From positions 1 through 64,000 of IMG/VR virus record IMGVR_UViG_3300033498_000048: a DNA stretch of 64,000 bases; one strand, 5' to 3'. Shown here piece by piece: positions 5,759 through 37,890 of the stretch. The stretch is from a virus (Duplodnaviria > Caudoviricetes). The number at the start of each line of letters is the position of its first letter. Positions within the stretch are counted from its first letter, which is position 1. The notes below the pieces were generated by a model that was not told where the DNA came from, did no database searches, and was given only the letters and a program-made list of their open reading frames with translations. The position numbers and the translations under genes are program-made.

Positions 5759-5944
5759 TCATTGAAATTGTTTAACGATATGGACTACATAATCATTGAT
5801 GACTTCTTTAACAAATTCTACTAAGTCATAACTTCGGTTTTTATAGACTTGTGGAATATAATCCCTTGCGTTTGCACTAGAGAATTTTTCACGTTCTAAT
5901 TTACCACCACGAAACAGGTTTACTTCACAAAAATCTTCATACAC
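5759..5944 (-). CDS. hypothetical protein
   Basis: 61-aa ORF with GAGG RBS. Confidence 0.45.
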   Translation of the reverse strand: MYEDFCEVNLFRGGKLEREKFSSANARDYIPQVYKNRSYDLVEFVKEVINDYVVHIVKQFQ

Positions 5945-5984
5945 AACATAATAACCCTCAAATTAACAATAAATTTTTCATAAA

Positions 5985-6080
5985 TGGTAGCTCGGTATGT
6001 TTGGATAAAACGTAATGACTCATTTCACACTGCTTAGTCGCGTACCAGCCGACTTGAGATGTCATTCTAAATTCAAGCTA
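5985..6080 (-). ncRNA. possible structured RNA with tRNA-like CCA end
   Basis: Minus strand: closing stem TAGCTTG/CGAGCTA then CCA; nested helices AATGAC/GTCATT and AGTCG/CGACT. Confidence 0.3.
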
Positions 6081-6429: not shown

Positions 6430-6558
6430 TACAAATTTATCCTAGTCAATTATCATTTGAATTGTCTTTAATTTTTCAGCAGCTAAAGTTGAATCCGAAT
6501 CAAACTCCGCTCTAAGCTGAAACTCCTATCCCAAGCTCTTTCTGGATGAATATAAACT

Positions 6559-6593
6559 TTGTTAATATTGGTCAATTTGACCAATATTAACAA
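6559..6593. repeat. perfect 35-bp palindrome
   Basis: TTGTTAATATTGGTCAA-T-TTGACCAATATTAACAA, 17-bp arms and a 1-nt centre. Confidence 0.9.
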
Positions 6594-6785
6594 CTAAGGT
6601 AAAAAATCACTCTGCGTACGGAAAGCCTTTCTTTCTTCGGGTGAAAGTGAACTCAGATAATCTTTACCACTTCTGAAATATTCTTCCAGTTCTTCATCAG
6701 TCATTTGAATATCGGTTCTATCATTTTTCGTAATACAACTTTTCCAAGTAGTTATAAGAAACGATATGGATTTACTTATACCCAT
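6594..6785 (-). CDS. hypothetical protein
   Basis: 63-aa ORF coupled to the upstream ORF. Confidence 0.5.
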   Translation of the reverse strand: MGISKSISFLITTWKSCITKNDRTDIQMTDEELEEYFRSGKDYLSSLSPEERKAFRTQSDFLP

Positions 6786-18742: not shown

Positions 18743-18879
18743 AAAGATGGTATGAACAATCAAATATAGTTTTTATCGCGTTTTAATATTAAACTACGTC
18801 CATGTTACTGGACGATTGGACTTTACCAATATCACGTCATTGGAAGTGAAGTATCTATATTTTACACAATACCATCTTT
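18743..18879 (-). ncRNA. Y RNA-like gene (YrlA type, diverged tRNA module)
   Basis: 11-bp end stem; internal loop TGTGTA/GATTGTTC; stem AAATATAG/CTATATTT; ATACTTC; T-like ATTGG/CCAAT; closed acceptor CGTCCA/TGGACG; D-like TAGTTTAATATTAAAAC. Confidence 0.65.
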
Positions 18880-19201
18880 TAAAAACAAATTATTCCCAAA
18901 TTCCAATACAGTTAAATTTACCTGTATCAACATCAAACGTAAATGATACAGAAAAACCATTGTAACCAGTAACATTTTCTGGACTATCGTGACATTTTTC
19001 AATAGAAAGCACAACTTTACCTCTATCTGTCACTTCATCAACGTTGAGGTTTAATGAGTTGCTTTGTTTGTTCTAAATCAGTCATTATTAGATTCCTAGT
19101 TTAAATGGATACTATAAACACATTTAAATTGATGTCAATCAACTAAATTCTGTTTGAGTTTTCTTTATTTAACGTGGGACTATTCTATCACCACAATAAT
19201 A

Positions 19202-19444
19202 CTATTTTAACCAATGAATCCCTGGAGCATAATGCTTTTCAATAAATTTAACATCTTTTTTTGTAGCATCGAATCCAAGTAATATTGAATCACCATGAGG
19301 GTTTAATACCTCAGTTAAAAAATCATCAACATCACAATCAGCGTCCAACATAGCAAAATCTTCACGGTCAGTCGGGTATTCTTTCACTTCAAAAACATGG
19401 CAACTAAATGGGTCAGGCATTGGAACGTGCATTAATTTCTTCAT
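19202..19444 (-). CDS. hypothetical protein
   Basis: 80-aa ORF. Confidence 0.6.
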   Translation of the reverse strand: MKKLMHVPMPDPFSCHVFEVKEYPTDREDFAMLDADCDVDDFLTEVLNPHGDSILLGFDATKKDVKFIEKHYAPGIHWLK

Positions 19445-19455
19445 TTTTTATAATC

Positions 19456-19860
19456 CTATATCAAAAATTTGTCATTAATATCATAATGTAATTTAGTTTC
19501 TGGGATAACATCTTTATTATCCAATACCATTTTCTTAATATCATTAAATCTTTTTTCAAGTGATTGTGTTGTTACACCTTTCAATGACTTTGCTCTGATT
19601 TTAGCTATTGAATAAGCACAATATGTTCCAGATTCTGGTCTAATGTACATACTGTGTCCAGATTCTGCATAAAACACACCATCTGTTATAGTGAATCCAT
19701 AATTCAACACATCATTTTCAAAGTACCCATTCGTTACTTCTGTCTTATCTTTTGCCAAATAACCTCTACACATCAACAACTCTGTATTACCACCAACAGA
19801 TATTTTTGACTTAGGAAAAACTTTATTCCAAGTGTTAATAACGTCTTCTTTATTTACCAT
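19456..19860 (-). CDS. hypothetical protein
   Basis: 134-aa ORF. Confidence 0.65.
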   Translation of the reverse strand: MVNKEDVINTWNKVFPKSKISVGGNTELLMCRGYLAKDKTEVTNGYFENDVLNYGFTITDGVFYAESGHSMYIRPESGTYCAYSIAKIRAKSLKGVTTQSLEKRFNDIKKMVLDNKDVIPETKLHYDINDKFLI

Positions 19861-20253
19861 ACTATAATACTCTCAAGGATTGTTATATTGTGGAACACAT
19901 AATACACATTTTATTCCAAAGAGTCAACATAAATTTGTGTATTAAGCTAGAAACGTTCTTTTAATGTCTTTCACAGTTGTTCCATATAGTAACAATTCGT
20001 AAACTGTATTAGTGTCACTATGATTCCAAAGCGTTCCAGAATCAATAGACTTAAGTATTTTGATGATTGTTGTTTTAATCGACTTTCTATTAATAGGCTA
20101 AATGAGTAGTTTGTACCATAATATCCCTATGGATTACCTTTCCAGCCCACATAGTTCGAGTAATTCTTGACGTGGAGTTTTGTGAGATTTGTTTATAATT
20201 CACATTATATTGAGTTTGTTATTAACCAGTTTACTTTTTAAAACATCTATTTG

Positions 20254-20343
20254 TGGATATGGAAGGAATTGAACCTACGATGTTTACCACGAGGGAACGG
20301 ATTTACAGTCCGATGATGCACAACCAACAGCACCCTCATATCC
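20254..20343 (-). tRNA. tRNA-Tyr(GTA)
   Basis: Acceptor GGATATG/CATATCC, A73, loop CTGTAAA, long variable arm, T-loop TTCAATT. Confidence 0.85.
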
Positions 20344-20352
20344 AAATTTATT

Positions 20353-20440
20353 ATTTAATAATTTACCAGAAACAATCCGATTCGGTGTTTATTTCACCAA
20401 AGAAGTAACCGAGTCATTCATCATGGCAAATTATTAAATA
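20353..20440 (-). ncRNA. short Y RNA-like gene (no tRNA module)
   Basis: End stem ATTTAATAATTT..CCA/TGG..AAATTATTAAAT enclosing TGATGA...GGTTACTTC...GATTGTTTC. Confidence 0.6.
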
Positions 20441-20477
20441 TTGTGTGGATGTTATTTCCACACATTTATTATTTAAC

Positions 20478-20551
20478 TGGTGCATCTGGGAGGAATTGAA
20501 CCTACTTCGCTCGATTATCAGTCGAGTGTTAGACCATTTAACTACAGATGC
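20478..20551 (-). tRNA. tRNA-Ile(GAT)
   Basis: Acceptor GCATCTG/CAGATGC, CCA, arm CTCGA-CTGATAA-TCGAG. Confidence 0.9.
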
Positions 20552-20843
20552 AATTGTAATATATCTTTTGAAGTCCATATCAAACAAATTGTTTATCTTT
20601 TAACAACATTAATAGAATTAAAAGATAAATGTTGACTTCACTGTTCACCTAGTAAATTAACGTATTCAAAATTCCCAGATTCAACAGAAGCTAGTACCTT
20701 TAGTATTTCATTTTGTAATTCATCACCACTTATATTTTGATTAGACCCTGGATATACATCTATTAGTGTTAGTCCAACATCATTCAGTTTATCGTTTAAA
20801 TCATTCACATTACACCTATATTCGTAAATTCGTTGAGTCTATT

Positions 20844-21119
20844 CTACCAACTGTAGACTTTTTTGATTTGCACACTTTCTATAACATACCAATATTGCCA
20901 TGTTCCACATTCACCGTTAGGGTCATCGACCCCACATTCATCGTAATCGACAGAGGTTATAACTTCCACATCATACCTCAAGTTATCAACCATCATATCA
21001 AATTTAAAGGTCTTTGTACCTTTAAACCAGTTACATCCAATGTTACACAGTTCGTTTCTGATAAAATACCAGATTGCTTCCTCTACATCAACAGATTTAA
21101 TGGTACGCAATTCAATCAT
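20844..21119 (-). CDS. hypothetical acidic protein
   Basis: ATG at 21119 (MIELRTIK); the longer 21206 call runs into tRNA-His. Confidence 0.6.
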   Translation of the reverse strand: MIELRTIKSVDVEEAIWYFIRNELCNIGCNWFKGTKTFKFDMMVDNLRYDVEVITSVDYDECGVDDPNGECGTWQYWYVIESVQIKKVYSW

Positions 21120-21151
21120 AATAACTCCAATTCTAACCAACACTTCATTAT

Positions 21152-21225
21152 GGGCGATTGATGGGAATTGAACCCACATCTTTGGGGTCACAACCCAACA
21201 CTTCAACCACTAAGCTACAATCGCC
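21152..21225 (-). tRNA. tRNA-His(GTG)
   Basis: G-1:C73, arm TTGGG-TTGTGAC-CCCAA, T-loop TTCAATT. Confidence 0.9.
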
Positions 21226-21330
21226 ATCGTTTTGAACTTTAGCTCAATCTATATGGATTCCATATATCTTAACTATTATAATACATTAATTCACATAACA
21301 TAAAAGATGTTAGATTTGATAATAAAACCA

Positions 21331-21381
21331 TGGACGCGAAAGGACTCTAACCTTAACTTACAATTGATTCAATTTGCGCCC
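21331..21381 (-). pseudogene. tRNA remnant (acceptor plus T-arm; D and anticodon arms deleted)
   Basis: GGGCGCA...AAGG-TTAGAGT-CCTT-TCGCGTCCA, only about 51 nt. Confidence 0.45.
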
Positions 21382-21402
21382 TAGAGTTTTATTATTGATA
21401 AT

Positions 21403-21489
21403 TGGTACGGATGATGGGACTCGAACCCACACGCTCTTTCGAGCAAGGGATTTTAAGTCCCTCGTGTCTACAATTTTCACCACATCCGC
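21403..21489 (-). tRNA. tRNA-Leu(TAA)
   Basis: GCGGATG/CATCCGT, A73, CCA, loop CTTAAAA, long variable arm. Confidence 0.92.
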
Positions 21490-21503
21490 ATTATTTGAAA
21501 AGT

Positions 21504-21578
21504 TGGTCGGAGCTGGGAGAATCGAACTCCCTTAATCTGGTTCCCAAAACCAGCGACTAACCAATAGCCTAAACTCCG
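21504..21578 (-). tRNA. tRNA-Pro(TGG)
   Basis: CGGAGTT/AGCTCCG, CCA, arm CTGGT-TTTGGGA-ACCAG. Confidence 0.9.
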
Positions 21579-21735
21579 TTTATTGTTTTCGTTTCGCACT
21601 TTTGATGGTGGCGAAACACCATTTTAACTTGATAGACTAAAGCAATTTCCCCGTAGCGTGTGGCTGAATCTATTGCTAACAGCTCAACGAATTTCACGTT
21701 GCGATTGATACCTACGCGAGTTTGTCTATCTATTT

Positions 21736-21818
21736 TGGTAGGCGACCTGGGACTCGAACCCAGAATGACATGGAGTCTAAATCCACTAGCTTTGCCAATT
21801 TGCATTAGTCAGTCGCCC
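21736..21818 (-). tRNA. atypical tRNA-Leu(TAG)
   Basis: GGGCGAC/GTCGCCT, A73, CCA; arm GTGGA-TTTAGAC-TCCAT; extended 5' connector and only a 6-nt variable region. Confidence 0.8.
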
Positions 21819-21824
21819 ATATTA

Positions 21825-21937
21825 TTTAAAAATTAACTAGAAACAATCTAAAACAGTATTAGAGGTTGAAATCATTGTTCCAACCTATTTCAATATAATG
21901 GAAGTAACCGTTTCATACACCATAGTTAATTTTTAAA
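21825..21937 (-). ncRNA. Y RNA-like gene (no tRNA module)
   Basis: End stem TTTAAAAATTAACTA/TAGTTAATTTTTAAA; TGGTGTA-TGAAAC-GGTTACTTC ... GTTTTA-GATTGTTTC; internal hairpin AGGTTG/CAACCT. Confidence 0.65.
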
Positions 21938-21940
21938 CCT

Positions 21941-22032
21941 TGGTGGGTAATGTAGGAATCAAACCTACTAGAGTCCTTTCGGAACTGACAGATTTACAGT
22001 CTGTTGCGACCCTTCAACTTCGCCGATTACCC
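21941..22032 (-). tRNA. tRNA-Tyr(GTA), second copy
   Basis: GGGTAAT/ATTACCC, A73, CCA, arm ACAGA-CTGTAAA-TCTGT, long variable arm. Confidence 0.88.
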
Positions 22033-22047
22033 TCTATTTTTACTTTG

Positions 22048-22118
22048 TGGATGCCCTAAGAGTCGAACTTAGAAGGTCAATATTACAGTCAGTCCCCGAT
22101 ACACTTGACTAGACATCC
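22048..22118 (-). pseudogene. degenerate tRNA with broken anticodon arm
   Basis: Acceptor GGATGTC/GGCATCC, D stem AGTC/GACT and T-arm CTAAG-TTCGACT-CTTAG intact; anticodon/variable region about 5 nt short and unpaired. Confidence 0.55.
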
Positions 22119-22447
22119 TTTTATTATTTGAGCCGTTTATTGGACTTTAACCATTGAGGCAATCACTCCTCACACACTTTAGAAACGACTTGGAAATTTA
22201 TCATTAAATGCTACAGCAAAATCATTACCGAACCTAACTAATATTTCATAATATACTTTGATTCGAGTTGACCTATTTAATACAAATTCTGATACTTCAT
22301 TGGTAAACTCGTTATTAACAAAGTATTCAGCAGCTTCTTCAACATCTAACATTTTATGTACCTTAACTTGATTGCTTGATTAAGTGTCACATTTTAAACT
22401 ATTTTAAAACAATGTCAACACTTTTTAAACAATCAAATGTTATTATG

Positions 22448-22519
22448 TAGCGAGTGTGGGAATCAAACCCACGACCTTTGGCTTATGAGACCAAAAAGCT
22501 ATCACTGCTATAACTCGCT
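22448..22519 (-). tRNA. tRNA-Met(CAT), body resembles initiator type
   Basis: AGCGAGT/ACTCGCT, arm TTGGT-CTCATAA-GCCAA; lacks the three G-C pairs typical of initiators. Confidence 0.8.
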
Positions 22520-22720
22520 ACATAATAACACTTTAATACATATTCCCTAATATTCCAGGACGATACAACTCCTTTGAACACTTTACACATCTATAAACAT
22601 GACATTTGTAACTTTCACTCACAATAATACTATTATAGTGAATGTATTTGAATACATGATTACAAAACCAACGCCTAAAAAATAACATTTCATTCACCCA
22701 CAACAACTTTAAATAAACAC

Positions 22721-22860
22721 ACTAGAAACAATCAAATACAGATATTATCGTGCTTTTACCATTAAGCTAAATGTCCACAAATATTGGACATTAAGAGAAT
22801 CGAACCCTCCTAAGTCTGCTAGACAGGCAGCCACACTCCCAGAGTGTGACAGCACCATTA
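22721..22860 (-). ncRNA. chimeric tRNA-Asp(GTC) / Y RNA-like gene
   Basis: 5' part GGTGCTG, D-like arm, CTGC-CTGTCTA-GCAG and T-arm; 3' part closed acceptor AATGTCC/GGACATT, D-arm TAGCTTAATGGTAAAAGC and GATTGTTTCTAG. Confidence 0.6.
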
Positions 22861-22865
22861 TTTAT

Positions 22866-23117
22866 TTAACAATTCAATCGTTTTAATTGGTTTACATCAT
22901 TTATCGTTCTACCAAAAATAACACATTTTTTAGTCATGTACCAATTAGACGCTTTAGTTACTTGACCAACTTTATATTCAATGAAAACATTATCACTTTT
23001 AAATTGAAATGATTGTGGATAATGTTTATTCGCATCATTTTTAAACTTTGGAGCAAAGGTCTCGATTAAAACTAAATACTCAGAAATAGCTTTCTTTTCA
23101 TCACTTGATAACTTCAT
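22866..23117 (-). CDS. hypothetical protein (paralogue of 23427-23639)
   Basis: ATG at 23117 (MKLSSDEK); the longer call overlaps tRNA-Asn. Confidence 0.65.
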   Translation of the reverse strand: MKLSSDEKKAISEYLVLIETFAPKFKNDANKHYPQSFQFKSDNVFIEYKVGQVTKASNWYMTKKCVIFGRTINDVNQLKRLNC

Positions 23118-23150
23118 TTTCAATTCCACTGATATTTCAAATAATATTAG

Positions 23151-23236
23151 CTCTATTGGGAGGACTCGAACCTCCATACGGTTTCCCGAATACAAAGCAT
23201 TAACAGTGCTTCCTCTTGCCATTAGAGTACAATAGA
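23151..23236 (-). tRNA. tRNA-Asn(GTT) with long variable arm
   Basis: TCTATTG/CAATAGA, G73, arm AAGCA-CTGTTAA-TGCTT, variable region TGTATTCGGGAAACCGTAT, T-arm GGAGG-TTCGAGT-CCTCC. Confidence 0.82.
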
Positions 23237-23365
23237 GCTAATATTACTAAATTGACGTAAAACATTCAATAGCTATGTTTATCATTTAAATATGAAGTAA
23301 CTATCATATACACTATAAAGGTTTCACTTATCAAGTTATTTAGTAATTATAAATTACTTGATTTA

Positions 23366-23639
23366 TAATGTCAAGCGTTTTAACTGGTTTACATCATTTG
23401 TTTTCACTCCAAACACCGTTACATCTTTACATCTTTACATCTTTAGTCATGTACCAATTATCTAGTTCTTTATTTCCACGCACAACTTTATAATCAATGT
23501 CAAGATTAGGATTCATAAACTGGAAAACCTGTAAATGGTGTTTAGTTGAATCATTTTTAAACAGATATGTAGCATTTACTTGAATCAAATCCAAATATGT
23601 TTGAATTGCCGATTTTTCAGCCACAGTTAATTGTTTCAT
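23366..23639 (-). pseudogene. paralogue of 22866-23117, frameshifted by an 8-bp tandem repeat
   Basis: (AAAGATGT)x3 at 23421-23444 gives a premature TAA; a single copy restores TKDVTVFGVKTNDVNQLKRL, matching TKKCVIFGRTINDVNQLKRL. Confidence 0.7.
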
Positions 23640-23713
23640 TGTACTACCTCATAATATATGTGTTCAAATCATAATGCACATTATATTTATAAGGTACTAC
23701 CGTGTCAAGTGTT

Positions 23714-24808
23714 TTATTTAAAACTATGTTCAAACACTAATATCTTCTTGTTCAATTCTTCTAACAATTCCAACCGTTTATCTTCTTTAAATGGTTGGAT
23801 GGTTATTAGTTGCTTCAAGTCAACATCAAATGATTTTTCAACAATATCGAGCTTACAAGATGAATGAAATATCGGTAAACAATTATTCCAAACTGCTCCA
23901 ATAAGCCTATCAATAGATATTACATTAGTGTCATATGCTGGAAAAACCATTGTATATCTAGTCCTTGATAACCTTTCGTTGTATTCATTCCAACTCAAAT
24001 ACCGATTATTAACACCAACCCTATCACTCTTAATATAAATTTCTGAATCGGTAAAATTATTTGCGAATCCATATAACTCGTTTTTATATAGTGTATCCCT
24101 ATTATGGGATTTCATATAAGTTGTATATCCACCAATGAAATTTATATTCTTATCAAGATTCGGTTTGATACTATGATTCAATAAATAATATTGATGTGAG
24201 TCCAACCTATTTGTATCATATTGTGGAATACCATATCCATAATATTTGTAATATTCATATTTTGGATAAATAGTTTGAAACAAATCACACGACATTTCAG
24301 TTGTATCAAAATTGTATTCGTGTAATGGAATTTTATATTCATTGTGAGCCTTTAACATCACCAATATATTAAAAATCCTAGATGCAGCACTCATAAACTT
24401 AAGTTGTCCAGAATCAAATGGAAATACATTACACCTGCGACTATTCCTAAAAAAATGTGAAGTGTGTTGAACATAACTTCCAATAATAAACAATTTTGAA
24501 TAATGCTGGAGGCTACTAACATCTATTTTTTCATAAACATCGTACCAAGATGTATATTGATGCGATATATACTGCTCATATAATAAATGTAACGAGAAGT
24601 TTATATCCAACCCCATCTCATTATTAAAGAATGTTATATCACTATTCGTTTTGTTATTTGATAACATATCAACATCAAATCCGATAGATTTTAAGATGGC
24701 AAGATGCCTTCGCCAATTTGCAGCATTAGTGGAAGTCGAAGTCGAAGCTCCAGTATAAAACAATATTTTAGACTTATTTTCTACGCTTGTATTATTCACA
24801 TCAATCAC
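23714..24808 (-). CDS. probable GT-B-fold glycosyltransferase
   Basis: 364 aa; C-terminal YNERLSRTRYTMVFPAYD...IDRLIGAVWNNCLPIF resembles the GT-B donor-binding segment of phage glucosyltransferases. Confidence 0.5.
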   Translation of the reverse strand: MIDVNNTSVENKSKILFYTGASTSTSTNAANWRRHLAILKSIGFDVDMLSNNKTNSDITFFNNEMGLDINFSLHLLYEQYISHQYTSWYDVYEKIDVSSLQHYSKLFIIGSYVQHTSHFFRNSRRCNVFPFDSGQLKFMSAASRIFNILVMLKAHNEYKIPLHEYNFDTTEMSCDLFQTIYPKYEYYKYYGYGIPQYDTNRLDSHQYYLLNHSIKPNLDKNINFIGGYTTYMKSHNRDTLYKNELYGFANNFTDSEIYIKSDRVGVNNRYLSWNEYNERLSRTRYTMVFPAYDTNVISIDRLIGAVWNNCLPIFHSSCKLDIVEKSFDVDLKQLITIQPFKEDKRLELLEELNKKILVFEHSFK

Positions 24809-24828
24809 CTATACGATATATAAAAATG

Positions 24829-24836
24829 TATTTATA
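24829..24836 (-). promoter_or_regulatory. T4-type late promoter TATAAATA
   Basis: Exact consensus on the minus strand, 20 nt upstream of ORF 24808. Confidence 0.55.
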
Positions 24837-24857
24837 CACAGTATAGGTGCTATTTAG

Positions 24858-25913
24858 TTATTGTTTGTGTACACTAAATTTCATAAGGTTTGGAGTAACA
24901 ATATTCACGAATCTATCAACTCCAGGTTCATCTTTTAATTGTGTCCAATCAGTGCCATTCCAGTACTTGAATATTTCAGACTCGTTCCAGTGTTTCAAAT
25001 CACATCTTGAAAATGTTACGTTACACTTATTACAAGCGTATGGAGTATCAGCTCTATTTTTATACCTAAGTCTACGTCTGATGGTTTGCATTTCCTCACC
25101 ATACCAAAACTTTTTAAAACCATCAACACCATCTAAAACATTGCCAAACTTGCCTTTAGTGACTTGTAATCCATCTTGACAGCACAACAAATAAGAACCA
25201 TCGGACGCTACAGTTACATACAAAAACGGTTGGTTACAACGTCTAGTTAATGGTTTTTCTAATGGACGCATATTGAAGTTTTTTTGAGCAGTTCCCCTAT
25301 CCCAATTCATGTTTCCATACCAATTCCCTAATAGTCCAGCTCTAAGTCTTGACTTGGGCCATGTAGATGGTTCGTCCATCAACACAATGATTTTCAAATC
25401 TGGACCATGATATTTCCATGGAGATGGAGCATTTTCAGGTTTATTATAATAACTGTAAAATGGATAACCAGATTCGGTTGCTAATTGCTCATATCTTTCA
25501 TGTGGTCCATATTGGTCAACATATAACACATTAGCACCAGCATCCAACAAATCTTTCATTTTATACTTGCCAGACAATAACTTTGTTCCATTTGTTGTAA
25601 TTTGGATTTGTGTCAATGGAGCAAGTTCTCTAGCAACTGGTAACAAAGTTAATAATTCATCGTTTAATGTCGGTTCACCCACGAACCCACATAAATCAAC
25701 TCTAACTGTTGGGGAAACCTCATTCAATATTTCAAATGTTCTTTTCCACACCAATTCATTCATTTTATTGTTATTAGATTTTGGAATTAAATCAGCACAA
25801 CAATGGTCGCATTTTAAATTACACCCAAATGCTGGTTCAATACTCCACACAATAGGAGAGGTTGAACCCAATGGTTTAATTTTTTTAGGAGTTTTTATTT
25901 TTTTAAATTCCAT
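24858..25913 (-). CDS. radical SAM / SPASM(twitch)-domain protein
   Basis: CNLKCDHC (CxxxCxxC), GEPTL, ITTNG, C-terminal RCNQPF...VASDGSYLLCC...CNKC. Confidence 0.88.
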   Translation of the reverse strand: MEFKKIKTPKKIKPLGSTSPIVWSIEPAFGCNLKCDHCCADLIPKSNNNKMNELVWKRTFEILNEVSPTVRVDLCGFVGEPTLNDELLTLLPVARELAPLTQIQITTNGTKLLSGKYKMKDLLDAGANVLYVDQYGPHERYEQLATESGYPFYSYYNKPENAPSPWKYHGPDLKIIVLMDEPSTWPKSRLRAGLLGNWYGNMNWDRGTAQKNFNMRPLEKPLTRRCNQPFLYVTVASDGSYLLCCQDGLQVTKGKFGNVLDGVDGFKKFWYGEEMQTIRRRLRYKNRADTPYACNKCNVTFSRCDLKHWNESEIFKYWNGTDWTQLKDEPGVDRFVNIVTPNLMKFSVHKQ

Positions 25914-25929
25914 TACAGTTCCCTAGTTT

Positions 25930-26110
25930 AATTACAAAATGAAGTTTGATTACAATAGAAACAATCATATGTGGTATGATTTGGCTATTGCTCTACCAAC
26001 TGAGCTACATTAACATAATTTGTTAATGGTGAGATTTGAACTCACGACAAATAGGTTTAAGATGTAACCACACATTTCACCATATTATAATCCAACTTCA
26101 TTTTGTAATT
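25930..26110 (-). ncRNA. yrlA: YrlA-type Y RNA (permuted tRNA mimic)
   Basis: Long end stem; TGGTGAA-ATGTGTGGT-TACATCT; T-arm GTGAG-TTCAAAT-CTCAC; loop-closed acceptor CATTAAC/GTTAATG; D-arm TAGCTCAGTTGGTAGAGC; ACCACATAT-GATTGTTTCTA. Confidence 0.8.
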
Positions 26111-26124
26111 AAACGGTTAATTAT

Positions 26125-26197
26125 TCCCCCTAGACAGAATCGAACTGTCATTCCCCGATTATGAGTCGGACACTTTTAACCAATAAGTTATAGGGGG
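26125..26197 (-). tRNA. tRNA(CAT), Ile2-like or elongator Met
   Basis: CCCCCTA/TAGGGGG, A73, arm TCCGA-CTCATAA-TCGGG. Confidence 0.85.
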
Positions 26198-26205
26198 TTA
26201 ATCTT

Positions 26206-26277
26206 TGGAGCGGATATGGGAACTCGAATCCCAGCAAATGGGTTGGAAGCCCATTGTCACACCTCGTGATTACCCGC
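26206..26277 (-). tRNA. tRNA-Gly(TCC)
   Basis: GCGGGTA/TATCCGC, U73, CCA, arm ATGGG-CTTCCAA-CCCAT. Confidence 0.88.
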
Positions 26278-26301
26278 AATATATTTATTTAATGTAATTT
26301 G

Positions 26302-26374
26302 TAAGCATGGCTCGATTTGAACGAACATTCCATGAGTCAAATTCATGTGTACTAACCAATTATACTACACGCCT
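26302..26374 (-). tRNA. tRNA-Gln(TTG)
   Basis: AGGCGTG/CATGCTT, arm CATGA-ATTTGAC-TCATG, T-loop TTCAAAT. Confidence 0.8.
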
Positions 26375-26389
26375 ACAAATTACACTAAA

Positions 26390-26489
26390 GTGATTTTACG
26401 GGGCTATGCTTTATCATAGAACCAACCCATGCTTTTAACATATGCAAAGCTCTAACCTTATAGGGAAAACATAAGCCCCGTAAAATCAC
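26390..26489. ncRNA. unknown RNA or hairpin closed by a 16-bp perfect stem
   Basis: GTGATTTTACGGGGCT/AGCCCCGTAAAATCAC around a 68-nt interior. Confidence 0.45.
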
Positions 26490-26646
26490 TCAATTAATTT
26501 TAATAATTCATATTGTTTCAATAGTCTTTTTTAACGTTATATTGACATCCACAACTCCATTCTTTTCCCTCGCATTTTAATTTGTGATAACGGTAAATGG
26601 CTTCCTCCACTTTTCATATTACACTAAACTCCGAAATGGTACACGT

Positions 26647-26844
26647 TTATGGATTCAAATAATATTGAACATCAGCATCCCACATCCAACTATTATCATC
26701 TAACCTCCACCCACCATACTCTTTTGTGAACAATTTAATGTTACCAGTTAGATTTTGAATTAGATATTGATTTCCAATTATTGGAACAACATCAATCACA
26801 CTAATCCACCCTAGTTTCTTTAACTTATTGTTAGACAATCTCAT
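26647..26844 (-). CDS. hypothetical protein
   Basis: 65-aa ORF. Confidence 0.55.
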   Translation of the reverse strand: MRLSNNKLKKLGWISVIDVVPIIGNQYLIQNLTGNIKLFTKEYGGWRLDDNSWMWDADVQYYLNP

Positions 26845-26873
26845 AATTAATTATTCCCATAACAAAACAAATT

Positions 26874-26966
26874 TGGCGGAAGAGGTGGGACTCGAACCCA
26901 CAAACCAACCTTCATTGGTCAAACAGTTTTCAAGACTGCGCAGTTCACCTATACTGTAGCTCTTCC
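26874..26966 (-). tRNA. tRNA-Ser(TGA)
   Basis: GGAAGAG/CTCTTCC, G73, CCA, loop CTTGAAA, long variable arm. Confidence 0.92.
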
Positions 26967-26968
26967 AT

Positions 26969-27044
26969 TGGTGGATGGTATTGAAATCGAATCAATTTCC
27001 CTGGATTTTCAGTCCAGTGCTATTACCAAACTAGCTCACCATCC
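26969..27044 (-). tRNA. tRNA-Phe(GAA)
   Basis: GGATGGT/ACCATCC, CCA, arm CTGGA-CTGAAAA-TCCAG. Confidence 0.9.
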
Positions 27045-27313
27045 AATATTTTTTAAATAATCATTGTTTCTATATAATAACCTTTAATTGGTATTATTTA
27101 AAATTGTTAATTTGAACTCCAACCGTCATGTTGGAGAATAAGCTAGTCAACACAAATCTTGACGTATCAGAGGACTATATTACACACTGTGACATCAATA
27201 TCCTAGAAATGCTGAGTTCTATCAATTTTAAATAATAACACTATCACCACAAGTTTTTTAAATTATACATTGGCAGTTAATGATTGTCAACATCTAATTT
27301 CAATACTAATAAA

Positions 27314-27345
27314 TGGTGTTCCTGACTGGAATTGAATCCGTAACA
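27314..27345 (-). pseudogene. tRNA 3' remnant (T-arm, acceptor 3' strand, CCA)
   Basis: GGA-TTCAATT-CCAG-TCAGGAACACCA with no upstream cloverleaf. Confidence 0.4.
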
Positions 27346-27350
27346 TTAAT

Positions 27351-27500
27351 TTTTAAAAATACTAGGAATTTGCGAATATAGAGATTTTACACGCTCTACC
27401 ATTAAGCTAAATGACCCTCGTATTGGTCATTAGAGGAATCGAACCTCTATCATGTTCGCCGAATGAAGTAACTATATTCTACACCATAGTATTTTTAAAA
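27351..27500 (-). ncRNA. yrlA: YrlA-type Y RNA immediately downstream of the Ro60 gene
   Basis: 14-bp end stem; TGGTGTA-GAATATAG-TTACTTC; T-arm AGAGG-TTCGATT-CCTCT; closed acceptor AATGACC/GGTCATT; D-arm TAGCTTAATGGTAGAGC; CTATATTC. Confidence 0.82.
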
Positions 27501-27595
27501 ACTTTTTTAATCTACTTCCAAGATGTAGTATTTAGTACACCTTGGAAGTAAGACAATTAACTAACTGTTGCAAGTGCTAACTCATAGATAGTTTC

Positions 27596-29014
27596 CTAAC
27601 TATCTTCACTTTGATGGTTATCTAACCCTTCCATTGAAGCAATGTAAGTCAAAAATGAACTAGACCAACCACTGATTTCAGATGTCCACACACCTTTATA
27701 ATTAACACCATGCGAATGTGAACTTACATCAATAATGTAATTAAACTTCCCAAAAGGTTTTGGAGGTGCTTTTACTCTATCACAGTCCTGTGAGTCACTA
27801 AAGATAATAATCCTATCAAAATCTGTACCAACATTCAATTGACACCAATCTAAACATTGTCTAGTGAATATGCCACCTCCACCAACTTTAACCCTTTCAT
27901 CTTCAATTTGTTTTACTAAACCAAATCCTTTGTTTGGATATTTAATATGGTTGTGTTTGCCAGTATAAGTAGAATCAACCCCAGCAGTAATGACAAACTC
28001 AAAATCTTCACACATATTAATCGCAGCTATTGCCATTGCTGTTCCAGCATCCAATCGAGTGAACTCTGAATCTTTAGATGAAATCTCACTTCGCATTGAA
28101 CCAGATACATCAAGAATAATCAAAGACTTTCCAGTTAATTTACTTACATTTGCATAGCTACGGAACATTACTTCTTCAATATCACGCTCAAATTCAGGTG
28201 AATATCTAACTGCTTTAAAGTAATCTAAAGGAAGTAACATTCCAGTTTTAACATTAGCAATAGCGTTTTGAATAACAAGTCTATCAACTCCAGCAGCTTT
28301 CATGTTTCTGATATTGCGCAACAATGCTAATCCACCCAATTTGTTTTCTTGGATTAATCTTGTCCATGATTCTTTTTTATCAGCTCCACTAGACAATGCA
28401 ACTTCCCATGTATCTGGAGTTTGTAACGTGTTTTCAGCCAATTTTTTAAAGCAATCTGCTTGTTCTTGTGTTACTGTTTTTGGGTGTACCATAAACATGA
28501 CATCACGCAATTTAACTGCATTACCAGTACCACGATATTTAGCTAAAGAATATTCGTTAAAATTCAAAAACGCTTTCGCTATTCCACGTTTCATAGCACT
28601 TGGTAGTGGACGTTTACCTCCATTCCAGTACAATGAAACCAAATCTGATAACATATCAGCACGAGTACAAACTTTAGGAATGACATCTGCAATCAATGTA
28701 CGATGTGATTCATGTTTAGCCATTTCAACAATCATCAAAATTGGAACATGACGTAACTTTTGCATAACACGACATTCAATAGCCAATTTAGCAACTTCTT
28801 CTGGTTCACATAGTGGAATCAACACTTTAATCTGCGATGCAACTTCTAAACCATCGACATACGCATTGTTTTCCCACAACAAACAAGCTAACACTAATCT
28901 TCTCAATGTTAAGATATTGCTTTGTTTAGCTGCTACATTACCCATTCCACCTGCCAATCGAACGTCTTGTTCAAAACGGTTATCAACAGCTTTAGTGTTC
29001 ATTTTTTTAGACAT
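27596..29014 (-). CDS. rsr: Ro60/TROVE-domain RNA-binding protein with C-terminal vWA domain
   Basis: LRRLVLACLLWE, LRHVP, RADML, F.EYSLAKY, VKLRDVMFMVHPK, TWEVALS, ALLRNIRNM; MIDAS LDVSGSM and IIFSDSQ; GAGG RBS before ATG 29014. Confidence 0.92.
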   Translation of the reverse strand: MSKKMNTKAVDNRFEQDVRLAGGMGNVAAKQSNILTLRRLVLACLLWENNAYVDGLEVASQIKVLIPLCEPEEVAKLAIECRVMQKLRHVPILMIVEMAKHESHRTLIADVIPKVCTRADMLSDLVSLYWNGGKRPLPSAMKRGIAKAFLNFNEYSLAKYRGTGNAVKLRDVMFMVHPKTVTQEQADCFKKLAENTLQTPDTWEVALSSGADKKESWTRLIQENKLGGLALLRNIRNMKAAGVDRLVIQNAIANVKTGMLLPLDYFKAVRYSPEFERDIEEVMFRSYANVSKLTGKSLIILDVSGSMRSEISSKDSEFTRLDAGTAMAIAAINMCEDFEFVITAGVDSTYTGKHNHIKYPNKGFGLVKQIEDERVKVGGGGIFTRQCLDWCQLNVGTDFDRIIIFSDSQDCDRVKAPPKPFGKFNYIIDVSSHSHGVNYKGVWTSEISGWSSSFLTYIASMEGLDNHQSEDS

Positions 29015-29032
29015 TTTCAATCCTCATTACAT

Positions 29033-29066
29033 TAGGAACAATCTAATCGTTACATTAGACACCATA
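29033..29066 (-). promoter_or_regulatory. minimal Y-RNA-like motif in the Ro60 mRNA leader (putative autoregulatory site)
   Basis: TA-TGGTGTC-TAAT-GTAACG-ATTA-GATTGTTCC-TA reproduces the shared internal loop, 7 nt upstream of the GAGG RBS. Confidence 0.6.
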
Positions 29067-29316
29067 AATATTCATATATTGCTTTAATGTGGCTTCCACA
29101 GTTGCCACATTCTATCAATTAATTCTTTGCCAAAAGCTTGTTGCATATCTGTTAAACAATCACTACGCATACAACGTAATTGTGATAATGTTTCAAAGTC
29201 AACAGTAACTTGGGTTATATGTATTATCTATCAACACATTAAATCCGTCTACTTCCACTTTATCCACCTTTATCAGTTTAATTTATTTCCATGTCACTCG
29301 ATAAATGATTAATTTG

Positions 29317-29389
29317 TCACCCAGGTGGGACTTGAACCCACAACCCTTCAATTAAAAGTCGAATGCTCTTCCTATTGAGCTACTGGGTG
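29317..29389 (-). tRNA. tRNA-Lys(TTT)
   Basis: CACCCAG/CTGGGTG, D stem GCTC/GAGC, arm TTCGA-CTTTTAA-TTGAA. Confidence 0.9.
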
Positions 29390-29459
29390 ATAATTGAATC
29401 ACTAAACGTATCTTTTTATTATAGATACTTCCTAACTATCTGTCAACTGACTATTCACT

Positions 29460-29696
29460 TTAAGCTAACATCACATTATATTTCACACCTAAACCCAACA
29501 CTTGAGAGTTTTGTCTGAAATTTACATATTCTCCAGGTTGGTTTGGAACTTCAATTTTAAAATGTGTATAAGCATATAATCCATGCAATTTTACCATTTT
29601 AATGAATTGCATTAACAACATTTCATTTCCACAATCTTCACGGAATTTTGTGATTAGTGGTACTAATTTTTTCAAAACTTTATCATTTGCGTTCAT
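29460..29696 (-). CDS. hypothetical protein
   Basis: 78-aa ORF behind a TTGACT-N16-TATAAT promoter. Confidence 0.55.
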   Translation of the reverse strand: MNANDKVLKKLVPLITKFREDCGNEMLLMQFIKMVKLHGLYAYTHFKIEVPNQPGEYVNFRQNSQVLGLGVKYNVMLA

Positions 29697-37625: not shown

Positions 37626-37890
37626 AATCAATGACTTAGCACTTGGAACAGGTTATTAATTACTTAATAGCTGCAAGTGCTAAGTCATTGATTGTTGGTT
37701 AAGTTACCATTCATACTCAATTATAAAGAATCAATAGGTTAGCACTTACATGGGTGTATTAGTTATATAACCGTTCTAAATGCTAAGTCATTGATTGTAT
37801 TATCATTCATTGTCATCTACTATAAATCAATGAGTTAGCACTTGGACGTTGTTACTGATTACCTAATCACGTCCAAGTGCTAAAACTAGC
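37626..37890. repeat. palindromic element cluster (3 units)
   Basis: Left arms at 37636, 37739, 37835. Confidence 0.9.

What the first reader, a model, noticed from the sequence alone, without database searches (positions are those of the whole stretch)
22721..22860. tRNA-Asp/Y-RNA chimera: a snapshot of Y RNAs arising from, or recombining with, tRNA genes
Seen: the 5' half looks like a tRNA-Asp (GGTGCTG, D-like hairpin, CTGC-CTGTCTA-GCAG with GTC anticodon, T-arm), but the matching acceptor 3' strand is absent. The T-arm runs instead into a YrlA 3' half (AATGTCC/GGACATT closed acceptor, TAGCTTAATGGTAAAAGC D-arm, GATTGTTTCTAG) very similar to the copy at 27351-27500. It also begins with TGGTG like the Y RNAs. 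Inference: recombination through the shared T-arm gave a Y RNA that displays an anticodon loop, a possible decoy for Asp-anticodon nucleases, or a non-functional hybrid.
Basis: partly seen in the sequence, partly recalled or inferred. Interest (0 to 1): 0.72.

Follow-up and report, generated by a model that had tools for sequence, protein, structure and literature searches.

The report
Divergent phage Y RNA, not tRNA-Asp chimera
The element is an odd-looking extra copy of the small "Y RNAs" that this giant phage encodes beside its own Ro60 protein; its supposed tRNA-Asp half is made of ordinary Y-RNA parts plus one added hairpin, so it is not a tRNA/Y-RNA fusion.

Summary
The 3' two-thirds (T arm, closed 7-bp "acceptor" hairpin, D arm, GAUUGUUUCUAG) is clearly a YrlA-type Y RNA. 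It lies 4.7 kb from a phage Ro60/TROVE gene, among about six paralogs in a tRNA array of a 305-kb phage.

The tRNA-Asp reading does not hold.
- A covariance model built from 7 other phage Y RNAs aligns the whole element collinearly (59.7 bits, E 1.5e-12, against 34.8 bits for the tRNA-like core alone).
- "GGTGCTG" overlaps the family's 5' AUGGUG motif, the presumed Ro60 contact.
- The "anticodon arm" (CUGC-CUGUCUA-GCAG) is the V stem-loop already described for YrlA. 13 of 16 relatives have a hairpin with a 7-nt loop at that position.
- The "D-like hairpin" is a 12-bp extra hairpin, and it lacks the invariant tRNA bases A14, R15 and G10.
- ARAGORN at its default threshold does not call a tRNA even when given a perfect artificial 3' acceptor strand.

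What is unusual is that the conserved UUACUUC motif is lost, helix 2 is reduced to G·U pairs, and the extra hairpin can sequester the 5' strand of helix 2. No ortholog and no RNA data were found, so I cannot tell whether the copy is functional or decaying. Interest is low to moderate.

The parts
22859..22869 (-). 5' strand of the outer terminal stem (UUAAAUAAAUA)
   Evidence: It pairs over 11 positions (one G·U) with 22709-22719 in the free and the constrained MFE folds. This is only weakly above chance in AT-rich DNA: 397 of 5000 shuffles reach it. Paralogs reach runs of 10-17.
22853..22858 (-). AUGGUG, the family's conserved 5' motif. It corresponds to the GNCGAA-type Ro60 contact of bacterial Y RNAs.
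   Evidence: The same hexamer stands at the 5' end of the copies at 21839-21923, 25957-26083 and 27363-27488, and as UGGYG in 16 aligned phage Y RNAs. The link to Ro60 rests on Chen et al. 2014 and is inferred here.
22827..22853 (-). Extra hairpin hp1: GCUGUCACACUC-UGG-GAGUGUGGCUGC, 12 pairs with one U·U and a 7-bp perfect core. Its 3' strand is the family's helix-2 5' strand; its 5' strand is a 12-14 nt insertion that no relative has.
   Evidence: It is part of the MFE folds. The core is reached by 47 of 5000 shuffles. MAFFT and the covariance model align GAGUGUGG with the helix-2 5' strand of the paralogs.
22815..22831 (-). V stem-loop: (G)CUGC-CUGUCUA-GCAG(A), followed by the 5-nt linker CUUAG. 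CUGC stands where relatives have the conserved UUAC(UUC).
   Evidence: 13 of 16 family members have at least 3 pairs closing a 7-nt loop 4-6 nt before the T stem, and the stems covary. Chen et al. 2014 describe this V stem-loop and the YUAY motif that begins it. It competes with the extended form of hp1 for GCUGC.
22793..22809 (-). T-arm mimic GAGGG-UUCGAUU-CUCUU
   Evidence: It matches Rfam YrlA positions 31-81 (local match of 17.8 bits) and model R1.
22770..22792 (-). Closed 'acceptor' hairpin AAUGUCC-AAUAUUUGU-GGACAUU, 7 perfect pairs
   Evidence: Against the nearest paralog (27xxx: AAUGACC...GGUCAUU) the fifth pair changed on both sides, A-U to U-A. This argues for selection on pairing.
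22752..22767 (-). D-arm mimic GCUU-AAUGGUAA-AAGC, preceded by UA (U8 A9); it carries A14, G18 G19 and A21
   Evidence: A 17-nt exact match to the paralog at 27397-27413.
22734..22741 (-). 3' strand of helix 2 (CUGUAUUU)
   Evidence: All 8 positions can pair with GAGUGUGG (22831-22838), but 5 of them are G·U (read directly from the sequence; the covariance-model alignment flags no non-standard pair there). The family-type fold is much weaker than the hp1 fold: -17.9 against -42.2 kcal/mol.
22722..22733 (-). GAUUGUUUCUAG, the family's conserved 3' strand that faces AUGGUG
   Evidence: Exact copies of GATTGTTTCTA stand at 21838-21848 and 25956-25966, and one-mismatch copies at 20367 and 29033. 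It is conserved as UUGUUYC in 16 phage Y RNAs.
22709..22719 (-). 3' strand of the outer terminal stem (UGUUUAUUUAA). It is set off from the conserved motif by an extra UAGUG.
27596..29020 (-). Phage Ro60 (TROVE) gene, the presumed protein partner
   Evidence: Pfam TROVE, E 7.7e-14. It is 57% identical to the TROVE protein of Bacteroides phage crAss001.

Best explanation
The element (window 22709-22869, minus strand) is a divergent paralog of the YrlA-type Y RNAs that this 305-kb phage encodes inside its tRNA array, next to its own Ro60 (TROVE) gene.

Like its paralogs, it has the 5' AUGGUG and 3' GAUUGUUUCUA strands brought together by a terminal stem. By analogy with bacterial Y RNAs this is the Ro60-binding module. 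It also has a tRNA-like module made of a V stem-loop, a T arm, a closed 7-bp acceptor-like hairpin and a D arm.

By analogy with Yrn1 and YrlA, the RNA would sit on Ro60 and use the tRNA-like module to gate the ring or to tether a host enzyme such as an exoribonuclease or a tRNA-recognising enzyme. These steps are inferred, not shown here.

This copy differs in three ways.
- A 12-14 nt insertion pairs with the 5' strand of helix 2 to form a strong side hairpin.
- The original helix 2 survives only as a G·U-rich pairing.
- The conserved UUACUUC motif reads CUGCCUG.

The apparent tRNA-Asp 5' half is the sum of the AUGGUG motif, this extra hairpin and the family's V stem-loop.
For: 1. Context: a TROVE gene at 27596-29020. 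Rfam YrlA gives sub-threshold hits on two paralogs, 37.1 and 27 bits.
2. Model R1 was built from 7 Y RNAs without this element (33 pairs, 27 with compensatory changes). It scores the element 59.7 bits, E 1.5e-12, end to end. The tRNA-like core alone scores 34.8 bits, so the flanks add about 25 bits.
3. R1 finds Y RNAs beside the Ro60 genes of all 7 related IMG/VR contigs, which validates the model.
4. Helix 2 is pairable at 8 of 8 positions.
5. GCAGAC matches the family linker GCGRAC.
6. The V hairpin is family-wide and published.
7. A compensatory change in the acceptor hairpin against the 27xxx paralog.
8. The similarity is mosaic: the middle is nearest the 27xxx copy and the 3' tail nearest the 18xxx copy (72%).
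9. ARAGORN at its default threshold calls a false tRNA-Leu in the 5' half of a bona fide Y RNA of a related phage. A tRNA look in the 5' half is therefore a family trait.
Against: - Rfam YrlA reaches only 17.8 bits locally, against a gathering score of 69.
- The element is the only one of about 20 full-length relatives without the UACUUC motif.
- The model's best alignment uses a different 5' register (basal stem CACACU/AGUGUG, with 4 nt of the 5' motif missing) from the one that keeps AUGGUG. The true 5' end is therefore open.
- The family-type fold is about 24 kcal/mol weaker than the hairpin fold.
- The terminal stem is shorter and offset, with a shuffle p of about 0.08.
- There is no ortholog, no RNA evidence and no Ro60-binding data.
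Confidence: 0.82

Rival explanations
1. Decaying paralog. The copy descends from the Y-RNA family but no longer works. The hairpin insertion, the lost UUACUUC motif and the G·U-only helix 2 are damage, not adaptation. This rival concerns function only and agrees with the best explanation on ancestry.
For: - It is the only family member without UACUUC.
- It has the lowest full-length score among the window's tRNA-module copies: 59.7 against 112-122 bits, although those three were training sequences.
- The terminal stem is weak and offset.
- The hairpin fold would sequester the helix-2 strand.
Against: - The T arm, D arm and both conserved end motifs are intact.
- The 7-bp acceptor hairpin is perfect and shows a compensatory double change against its nearest paralog.
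- Every departure in helix 2 still pairs, 8 of 8. Neutral decay would not be expected to preserve that.
- A 12-bp near-perfect hairpin is itself an ordered feature.
Confidence: 0.35
2. The 5' two-thirds of a tRNA-Asp gene was joined to the 3' part of a YrlA gene by recombination within the shared T arm. The product is a hybrid that shows a GUC anticodon loop and could act as a decoy for Asp-anticodon nucleases.
For: - A 4-bp stem with the 7-nt loop CUGUCUA (U33, GUC) lies 5 nt before the T stem, the geometry of a tRNA anticodon arm.
- With a synthetic 3' strand, ARAGORN calls tRNA-Asp once its threshold is lowered to 80%.
- The phage carries tRNAs for Tyr, His and Asn but none for Asp.
Against: - A fusion at the T arm would remove the Y RNA's own 5' strand, yet AUGGUG and a terminal stem with the 3' flank are present.
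- The whole 5' part aligns to the Y family.
- The hairpin at the 'anticodon' position exists in 13 of 16 relatives with other loop sequences.
- Position 37 is U, and 27:43 is G·A.
- The 'D arm' has U14, C15 and A10 in place of A14, R15 and G10.
- ARAGORN at its default threshold rejects the construct, and at 60% it also calls a nonsense tRNA on the opposite strand.
- Rfam tRNA gives no hit.
- No similarity above 10-11 nt to anything else in the genome or to phage tRNAs.
Confidence: 0.06
3. Permuted or split tRNA-Asp gene. The order anticodon arm, T arm, acceptor 3' strand, loop, acceptor 5' strand, D arm is that of a circularly permuted tRNA gene. Cleavage in the acceptor loop and joining at the D/anticodon junction would give a working tRNA-Asp.
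For: - The module order fits a permutation opened at position 26/27.
- 7-bp acceptor-like stems of YrlA can be cut by RNase P and receive CCA in M. smegmatis (Chen et al. 2014).
- The genome has no tRNA-Asp.
Against: - The same module order holds for the whole family with unrelated loop triplets, so it is not specific to Asp.
- The base after the acceptor 3' strand is A and position 38 is A, whereas bacterial Asp identity uses G73 and C38 (from my own knowledge, not tested here). Position 37 is U.
- 18 nt and about 30 nt of extra RNA would have to be removed, and no ligase or splicing signal was identified.
Confidence: 0.02

Closest known systems
YrlA-type bacterial and phage Y RNAs (Rfam RF02553; Chen et al. 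2014, PMC4201824)
   Same: - It is encoded near a Ro60/TROVE gene.
- The 5' and 3' ends are brought together with a conserved 5' motif.
- The internal tRNA-like module has the order V stem-loop, T arm, closed acceptor-like stem, D arm.
- The 7-bp acceptor-like stem resembles that of M. smegmatis YrlA.
- Several Y RNAs occur per genome.
   Different: - It scores far below Rfam's gathering score: 17.8 bits here and 27-37 bits for the paralogs, against 69.
- The 5' motif reads GGUG.. rather than GNCGAA.
- In this copy the YUAY/UUACUUC motif is replaced (CUGCCUG).
- The helix joining the two modules is reduced to G·U pairs, and its 5' strand is captured by an inserted hairpin.
Paralogs in the same window (minus strand: 18744-18878, 25949-26091, 27356-27495 with a tRNA-like module; 20360-20432 and 21831-21931 without)
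   Same: Same strand and same tRNA array, with the same AUGGUG and GAUUGUUUCUA end motifs. The T-to-D region is 82% identical to the 27xxx copy and the 3' tail 72-81% identical to the 18xxx copy.
   Different: The paralogs have a Watson-Crick helix 2, the UUACUUC/UUACAUC motif and complementary terminal runs of 10-17 directly abutting the motifs. This copy has none of these in canonical form.
Thermus phage phiLo Ro60 with Yrl1/Yrl2 (PMC12135203)
   Same: A phage-encoded Ro60 with more than one phage-encoded Y-like RNA close to the gene. Binding to Ro60 and to host PNPase was shown there, and this is the mechanism I assume here.
   Different: The sequences are unrelated. The phiLo RNAs were picked by a CGAA motif. 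Nothing comparable to the hairpin-rearranged copy is described there.
Tandem tRNA genes mis-scored as YrlA (a caveat raised by Chen et al. 2014)
   Same: A T arm followed by a D arm, with tRNA-looking sequence upstream.
   Different: In tandem tRNAs, the stretch between T arm and D arm consists of two unrelated acceptor strands, and each tRNA closes its own acceptor stem. Here that stretch is a self-complementary 7-bp hairpin, and the 5' GGUGCUG has no partner. A true tandem-tRNA false positive in a related phage scored only 25.7 bits with many broken pairs.

Membership tests
YrlA-type Y RNA | Encoded close to a Ro60/TROVE gene (Chen et al. used 4 kb or less) | tested here: met
   The TROVE gene is at 27596-29020. 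The element lies 4.7 kb downstream on the same strand, slightly beyond 4 kb but inside one array of paralogs.
YrlA-type Y RNA | T-arm-like and D-arm-like stem-loops with tRNA-invariant bases, separated by a closed acceptor-like stem-loop | tested here: met
   Rfam YrlA positions 31-81 align. R1 scores the core 34.8 bits, E 7e-9. UUCGAUU, U8 A9, A14, G18 G19 and A21 are all present.
YrlA-type Y RNA | 5' and 3' ends form a stem carrying the 5' Ro60-contact motif (GNCGAAN0-1G) | tested here: inconclusive
   AUGGUG and GAUUGUUUCUA are identical to the paralogs' motifs. The motif, however, reads GGUGCUG, the terminal stem is offset and weak, and the model prefers another register.
YrlA-type Y RNA | V stem-loop upstream of the T arm, begun by the conserved YUAY | tested here: inconclusive
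   The hairpin is present at the right distance. YUAY reads CUGC (Y-U-G-Y), and the rest of UUACUUC is lost.
YrlA-type Y RNA | Reaches Rfam RF02553's gathering score (69 bits) | tested here: not met
   17.8 bits, local match only. The clear paralogs also fail, at 37.1 and 27 bits, so the Rfam model does not cover this phage clade.
YrlA-type Y RNA | Matches a covariance model of Ro60-linked phage Y RNAs built without it | tested here: met
   R1: 59.7 bits, E 1.5e-12, model positions 1-138.
YrlA-type Y RNA | Bound by Ro60 in vivo or in vitro | not testable with these tools
tRNA (tRNA-Asp) | Acceptor stem formed by the 5' end and the strand after the T arm | tested here: not met
   The T arm is followed by AAUGUCC, which pairs with GGACAUU and not with GGUGCUG. 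No CAGCACC lies downstream.
tRNA (tRNA-Asp) | D arm with U8, G10, A14, R15, G18 G19 and A21 | tested here: not met
   The 5' hairpin has A10, U14 and C15 and is really a 7-12 bp stem with a 3-nt loop.
tRNA (tRNA-Asp) | Anticodon arm of 5 bp with a 7-nt loop, U33 and a purine at 37 | tested here: not met
   It has 4 bp plus a G·A mismatch. U33 is present, but position 37 is U (drawing).
tRNA (tRNA-Asp) | Recognised by tRNA finders | tested here: not met
   ARAGORN finds nothing here. RF00005 gives no hit at E up to 0.01 genome-wide. With an artificial perfect 3' strand, ARAGORN still finds nothing at its default threshold.

The most novel reading that the evidence does not exclude
In this clade of phage Y RNAs, the 'V' stem-loop may be a true anticodon-arm mimic. 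13 of 16 members have a 7-nt loop. In those loops the second base is U in 10 of 13 and the sixth is a purine in 12 of 13, and the hairpin ends 4-6 nt before the T stem, as an anticodon arm does.

On this reading each paralog is a circularly permuted tRNA look-alike, opened at the D/anticodon junction and tethered to Ro60, and each shows a different triplet (here GUC). The set could serve as Ro60-linked decoys or sensors for host enzymes that read anticodon loops, such as nucleases or modification enzymes. The extra hairpin of this copy, which competes with the V stem, could switch its loop on and off.
Probability: 0.08. Interest if true: 0.75.

Novelty: new member of a known kind. Interest (0 to 1): 0.3.

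Why it matters
The result removes an attractive but unsupported story, that a Y RNA had been caught recombining with a tRNA gene. It also shows how the false impression arises. The 5' halves of these phage Y RNAs naturally look like tRNAs, and ARAGORN miscalls one as tRNA-Leu in a related phage. This is a practical warning for tRNA annotation in phage genomes that encode Ro60.

On the positive side, the element documents how far a Y-RNA paralog can be rearranged while keeping its tRNA-like core: helix 2 is turned into a side hairpin and the YUAY motif is lost. This gives a natural variant for testing which parts Ro60 binding needs.

The wider setting is the more interesting subject. Many Y RNAs lie in a phage tRNA array, their V loops resemble anticodon loops, and crAss001 carries circularly permuted tRNA-shaped versions.

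Tried and rejected
- **Close relatives.** Megablast and blastn of the region against 50,697 phage records gave no relative, only 26-nt chance matches.
- **Exact pattern.** An exact pattern for the 'anticodon' hairpin found nothing in IMG/VR.
- **Ro60 relatives.** Those in IMG/VR are at most 51% identical. They carry Y RNAs, but none has this copy's arrangement.
- **Syntenic loci.** I searched for syntenic loci through the neighbouring radical-SAM protein in JGI metagenomes. Nine loci at 52-79% identity came back, none with a Y RNA or tRNA nearby, so no ortholog was available.
- **Sequencing runs.** No RNA holder is listed. Two DNA runs from microbial-mat metagenomes hold the sequence: one is the probable source, the other holds identical 151-nt pieces. 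There is therefore no information on expression or RNA ends.
- **Repeat or mobile element.** I tested whether the 5' hairpin is a repeat or mobile element. Nothing longer than 10-13 nt recurs in the genome.
- **Terminator.** No intrinsic terminator is predicted there, since no U tract follows the hairpin.
- **Tandem tRNA genes.** Rejected, because the acceptor strands do not fit.
- **Full V-plus-T alignment.** MAFFT misplaced gaps in the V-plus-T region, so pairs were counted on the 17-nt hairpins only. Those hairpins were selected for pairing, so the paired percentage is biased. The covariation, and the 13-of-16 count from the unselected set, are the usable parts.

Full report
**Setting**

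The window is the first 64 kb of a 305,782-bp IMG/VR virus record with direct terminal repeats. The sequence comes from microbial-mat metagenomes. Between 17.7 and 31.2 kb, all on the minus strand, lie 17 ARAGORN tRNA genes. The same stretch holds a TROVE/Ro60 gene at 27596-29020 (Pfam E 7.7e-14), which is 57% identical to the TROVE protein of Bacteroides phage crAss001. A set of Y-RNA-like genes is interspersed among the tRNAs. Rfam's YrlA model touches two of them below its threshold: 25952-26083 at 37.1 bits and 27363-27471 at 27 bits, against a gathering score of 69.

**Observation**

The coordinates are given under the observation check and parts. The strand after the T arm does not complement GGUGCUG. 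BLAST within the genome links the T-to-D region to the 27xxx copy (82%, E 3e-7) and the 3' tail to the 18xxx copy (81%, E 9e-5). An independent Logan assembly of the probable source sample spans 20000-29500 in one contig without differences.

**The family**

By eye and by pattern search, the window holds copies with a tRNA-like module at 18744-18878, 25949-26091 and 27356-27495. Short copies without the module lie at 20360-20432 and 21831-21931. Weak stubs lie at 23245-23318 and 29026-29072.

All copies share one plan, in this order:
- a terminal stem;
- AUGGUG;
- helix 2, 5' strand;
- (G)UUACUUC;
- a variable insert;
- helix 2, 3' strand;
- GAUUGUUUCUA;
- the terminal stem again.

A degenerate pattern found the same kind of RNA in five other IMG/VR phages. 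I aligned three window copies and four foreign ones, leaving out the element under study. RNAalifold gave 33 pairs, 27 of them with compensatory changes: terminal stem, helix 2, T arm, closed acceptor and D arm. The covariance model R1 built from this alignment finds Y RNAs directly beside the Ro60 genes of all seven Ro60-related contigs. It also finds up to seven hits in one 104-kb phage. R1 is therefore a valid detector of Ro60-linked phage Y RNAs.

**How the element fits the family**

With filters off, R1 scores the element 59.7 bits (E 1.5e-12) over model positions 1-138, that is, end to end. The tRNA-like core alone scores 34.8 bits, so the two flanks together add about 25 bits.

In the alignment:
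- GAGUGUGG takes the place of the helix-2 5' strand. It can pair at all eight positions with CUGUAUUU, though five of the pairs are G·U.
- CUGCCUG takes the place of UUACUUC.
- GCAGAC matches the family linker GCGRAC.
- The 3' tail is 72% identical to the 18xxx copy.

Two 5' registers are possible. The model's register uses CACACU/AGUGUG as the basal stem and lacks 4 nt of the 5' motif. The other register keeps the exact AUGGUG and an 11-pair outer stem (22859-22869 with 22709-22719). It treats GUCACACUCUGG as a 12-nt insertion, or 14 nt if the preceding CU is counted. In both registers the element is collinear with the family. A fusion at the T arm would have removed the Y RNA's own 5' strand, yet that strand is present.

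**The three tRNA-Asp features**

1. *"Acceptor strand."* GGUGCUG overlaps the family's AUGGUG motif.

2. *"D-like hairpin."* This is a 7-bp perfect stem with a 3-nt loop, extendable to 12 pairs with one U·U. The core is reached by 47 of 5000 shuffles. Read as a D arm it would have A10, U14 and C15, which breaks the most invariant tRNA positions. The real D-arm mimic, with U8 A9 G10, A14, G18 G19 and A21, lies downstream.

3. *"Anticodon arm."* This is the family's V stem-loop. In an unselected set of 16 full-length members, 15 have a hairpin ending 3-7 nt before the T stem. The summed hairpin score is reached by 7 of 1000 shuffles. With a fixed frame of 5-nt arms and a 7-nt loop, 13 of 16 have at least three closing pairs and a 4-6 nt tail. 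The stems covary, for example UUCUA/UAGAG, UUCGA/UCGAG, CUCG/CGAG, CUGC/GCAG and AGGUG/CGCCU (that alignment was selected for pairing). Chen et al. 2014 described exactly this: a less-conserved stem-loop 'V' upstream of T, begun by a conserved YUAY. YUAY is the UUAC of UUACUUC.

In a related phage (L005), ARAGORN at its default threshold calls a 'tRNA-Leu(tag)' from the 5' half of a bona fide Y RNA of 98 bits. This shows that the tRNA look of the 5' half is a family property.

The element's own 5' half is a poor tRNA:
- RF00005 does not hit it.
- When I appended a perfect artificial 3' acceptor strand, ARAGORN still found nothing at its default threshold.
- ARAGORN called tRNA-Asp only at 80% stringency. 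At 60% it also called a nonsense tRNA on the opposite strand.
- Position 37 is U, and 27:43 is G·A.
- No tRNA-Asp exists anywhere in the genome.
- The 5' segment has no similarity above 10-13 nt to anything else in the genome or in 50,697 phage records.

**What is really unusual**

Among about 20 full-length relatives, this is the only copy without UACUUC. It is also the only one with a strong hairpin made from the helix-2 5' strand and an upstream insertion. Thermodynamically the hairpin fold wins by a wide margin: -42.2 kcal/mol with the tRNA-like core enforced, against -17.9 for the family-type fold. The extended hairpin also competes with the V stem for GCUGC. The terminal stem is shorter than in the paralogs and is set off by five extra bases.

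Against simple decay stand three points:
- the T and D arms and both end motifs are intact;
- the acceptor-like hairpin is a perfect 7 bp, with a double (compensatory) change against the nearest paralog (AAUGACC/GGUCAUU to AAUGUCC/GGACAUU);
- every departure in helix 2 still allows pairing.

The mosaic similarity suggests exchange among Y-RNA paralogs rather than with a tRNA: the middle is nearest 27xxx and the tail nearest 18xxx.

**Mechanism (inferred)**

By analogy with D. radiodurans Yrn1, Salmonella and Mycobacterium YrlA, and the Thermus phage phiLo Yrl RNAs, the paired ends with AUGGUG bind Ro60. The tRNA-like module then engages a host factor. In D. radiodurans and phiLo that factor is PNPase. 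In Salmonella and Mycobacterium, tRNA-modifying enzymes, RNase P and the CCA-adding enzyme recognise the module. In this copy the connector helix has become a side hairpin, so the tRNA-like module would hang from the Ro60-binding strands by single-stranded linkers. Whether this changes its function or abolishes it cannot be decided from the sequence.

A perfect TTGACA-17-TATAAT lies at 23374-23346 on the minus strand, upstream of the tRNA-Asn gene and this element. No terminator is predicted in between. Co-transcription with the tRNAs is therefore plausible but not shown.

**Comparison and novelty**

The element belongs to the known kind 'YrlA-type Y RNA' in a phage clade that Rfam's model does not reach. 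It is a rearranged member of that kind. It is not a tRNA, not a pair of tandem tRNAs and not a tRNA fusion.

No ortholog could be found and no RNA run holds the phage. Function against decay therefore stays open. I put the Y-RNA ancestry at about 0.82 and the tRNA-Asp fusion at about 0.06.

The most novel reading still allowed is that the V loops of this clade are deliberate anticodon-loop mimics. In the 7-nt loops, U is second in 10 of 13 and a purine is sixth in 12 of 13. On that reading this copy shows GUC. I give it a probability of about 0.08.

**Earlier notes of this scan**

Notes on the same window already list the Ro60 gene and six Y-like loci, including this one. I reached the same family independently and tested it with R1. 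The notes did not change my reading.

Noticed in passing
L011 5810-6716 (Bacteroides phage crAss001, NC_049977.1 about 95964-96870, the unannotated gap downstream of TROVE gene gp96): The gap holds two short Y-like RNAs (L011 about 5905-5995 and 6003-6078). It also holds two tRNA-shaped RNAs with an OPEN 7-bp acceptor stem and a T arm, the first also with a canonical D arm. In both, the anticodon-arm position carries a circularly permuted Y module closed by a loop and followed by UUACUUC.

L011 6084-6227 scores 46.6 bits on Rfam tRNA with an 82-nt insert. The second lies at L011 6339-6478. These are real tRNA/Y-RNA hybrids of another topology. I found no paper linking crAss001 to Y RNAs.
   Followed up: partly
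L005 6535-6672 (IMGVR_UViG_3300005676_000138): ARAGORN at its default threshold calls 'tRNA-Leu(tag)' at 6535-6608. That stretch is the 5' half of a Y RNA (98 bits on R1) lying directly upstream of a Ro60 gene. This is a likely source of false tRNA annotations in phages that encode Ro60.
   Followed up: yes
window 18744-29072, minus strand: The V stem-loops of the family mostly have 7-nt loops of the form Y-U-NNN-R-N, for example CUUCCAA in the 18xxx copy and AUUCGGC in the 27xxx copy. The loop CUUCCAA recurs in an unrelated phage contig (L007). The loops resemble anticodon loops or U-turns.
   Followed up: partly
window 23245-23318 (-) and 29026-29072 (-): Two weak, short Y-like stubs: UAGUG...GUUACUUC...AAUGUUUU upstream of tRNA-Asn (R1 12.1 bits), and AUGGUG...GAUUGUUCCUAA just upstream of the Ro60 start (R1 14.5 bits, E 0.07).
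   Followed up: no
window 23346-23374 (-) and 22391-22418 (-): A perfect sigma-70-type promoter match (TTGACA-17-TATAAT, 12 of 12) lies upstream of tRNA-Asn, and an 11-of-12 match lies downstream of tRNA-Met. This suggests a host with classical -35/-10 promoters, even though the Ro60 protein is closest to those of crAss-like phages.
   Followed up: no
window 37723-37806 (-); genome 86866-86919 (-) and 162282-162373 (-): Three dispersed copies of a motif ending ..AAGUGCUAA(C/G)(C/U)(C/U)AUUGAUUCUU(C/U)AU, preceded by AUGGUG or AUGAUA. This may be a repeated regulatory or RNA element unrelated to the Y RNAs.
   Followed up: no
window 24858-25913 (-): A radical SAM/SPASM protein gene sits inside the tRNA/Y-RNA array. 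Its relatives (52-79% identical) in JGI metagenome contigs have no tRNA or Y RNA nearby.
   Followed up: partly
G009 (IMGVR_UViG_3300005264_000005, 103.7 kb) 55654-83061: Another phage with many Y-RNA copies: seven R1 hits. One of them is a tandem-tRNA false positive at 77346-77482. One, at 75454-75600, carries an 80-nt insert that is not tRNA-like. Multi-copy, modular Y-RNA arrays are therefore not unique to this phage.
   Followed up: partly
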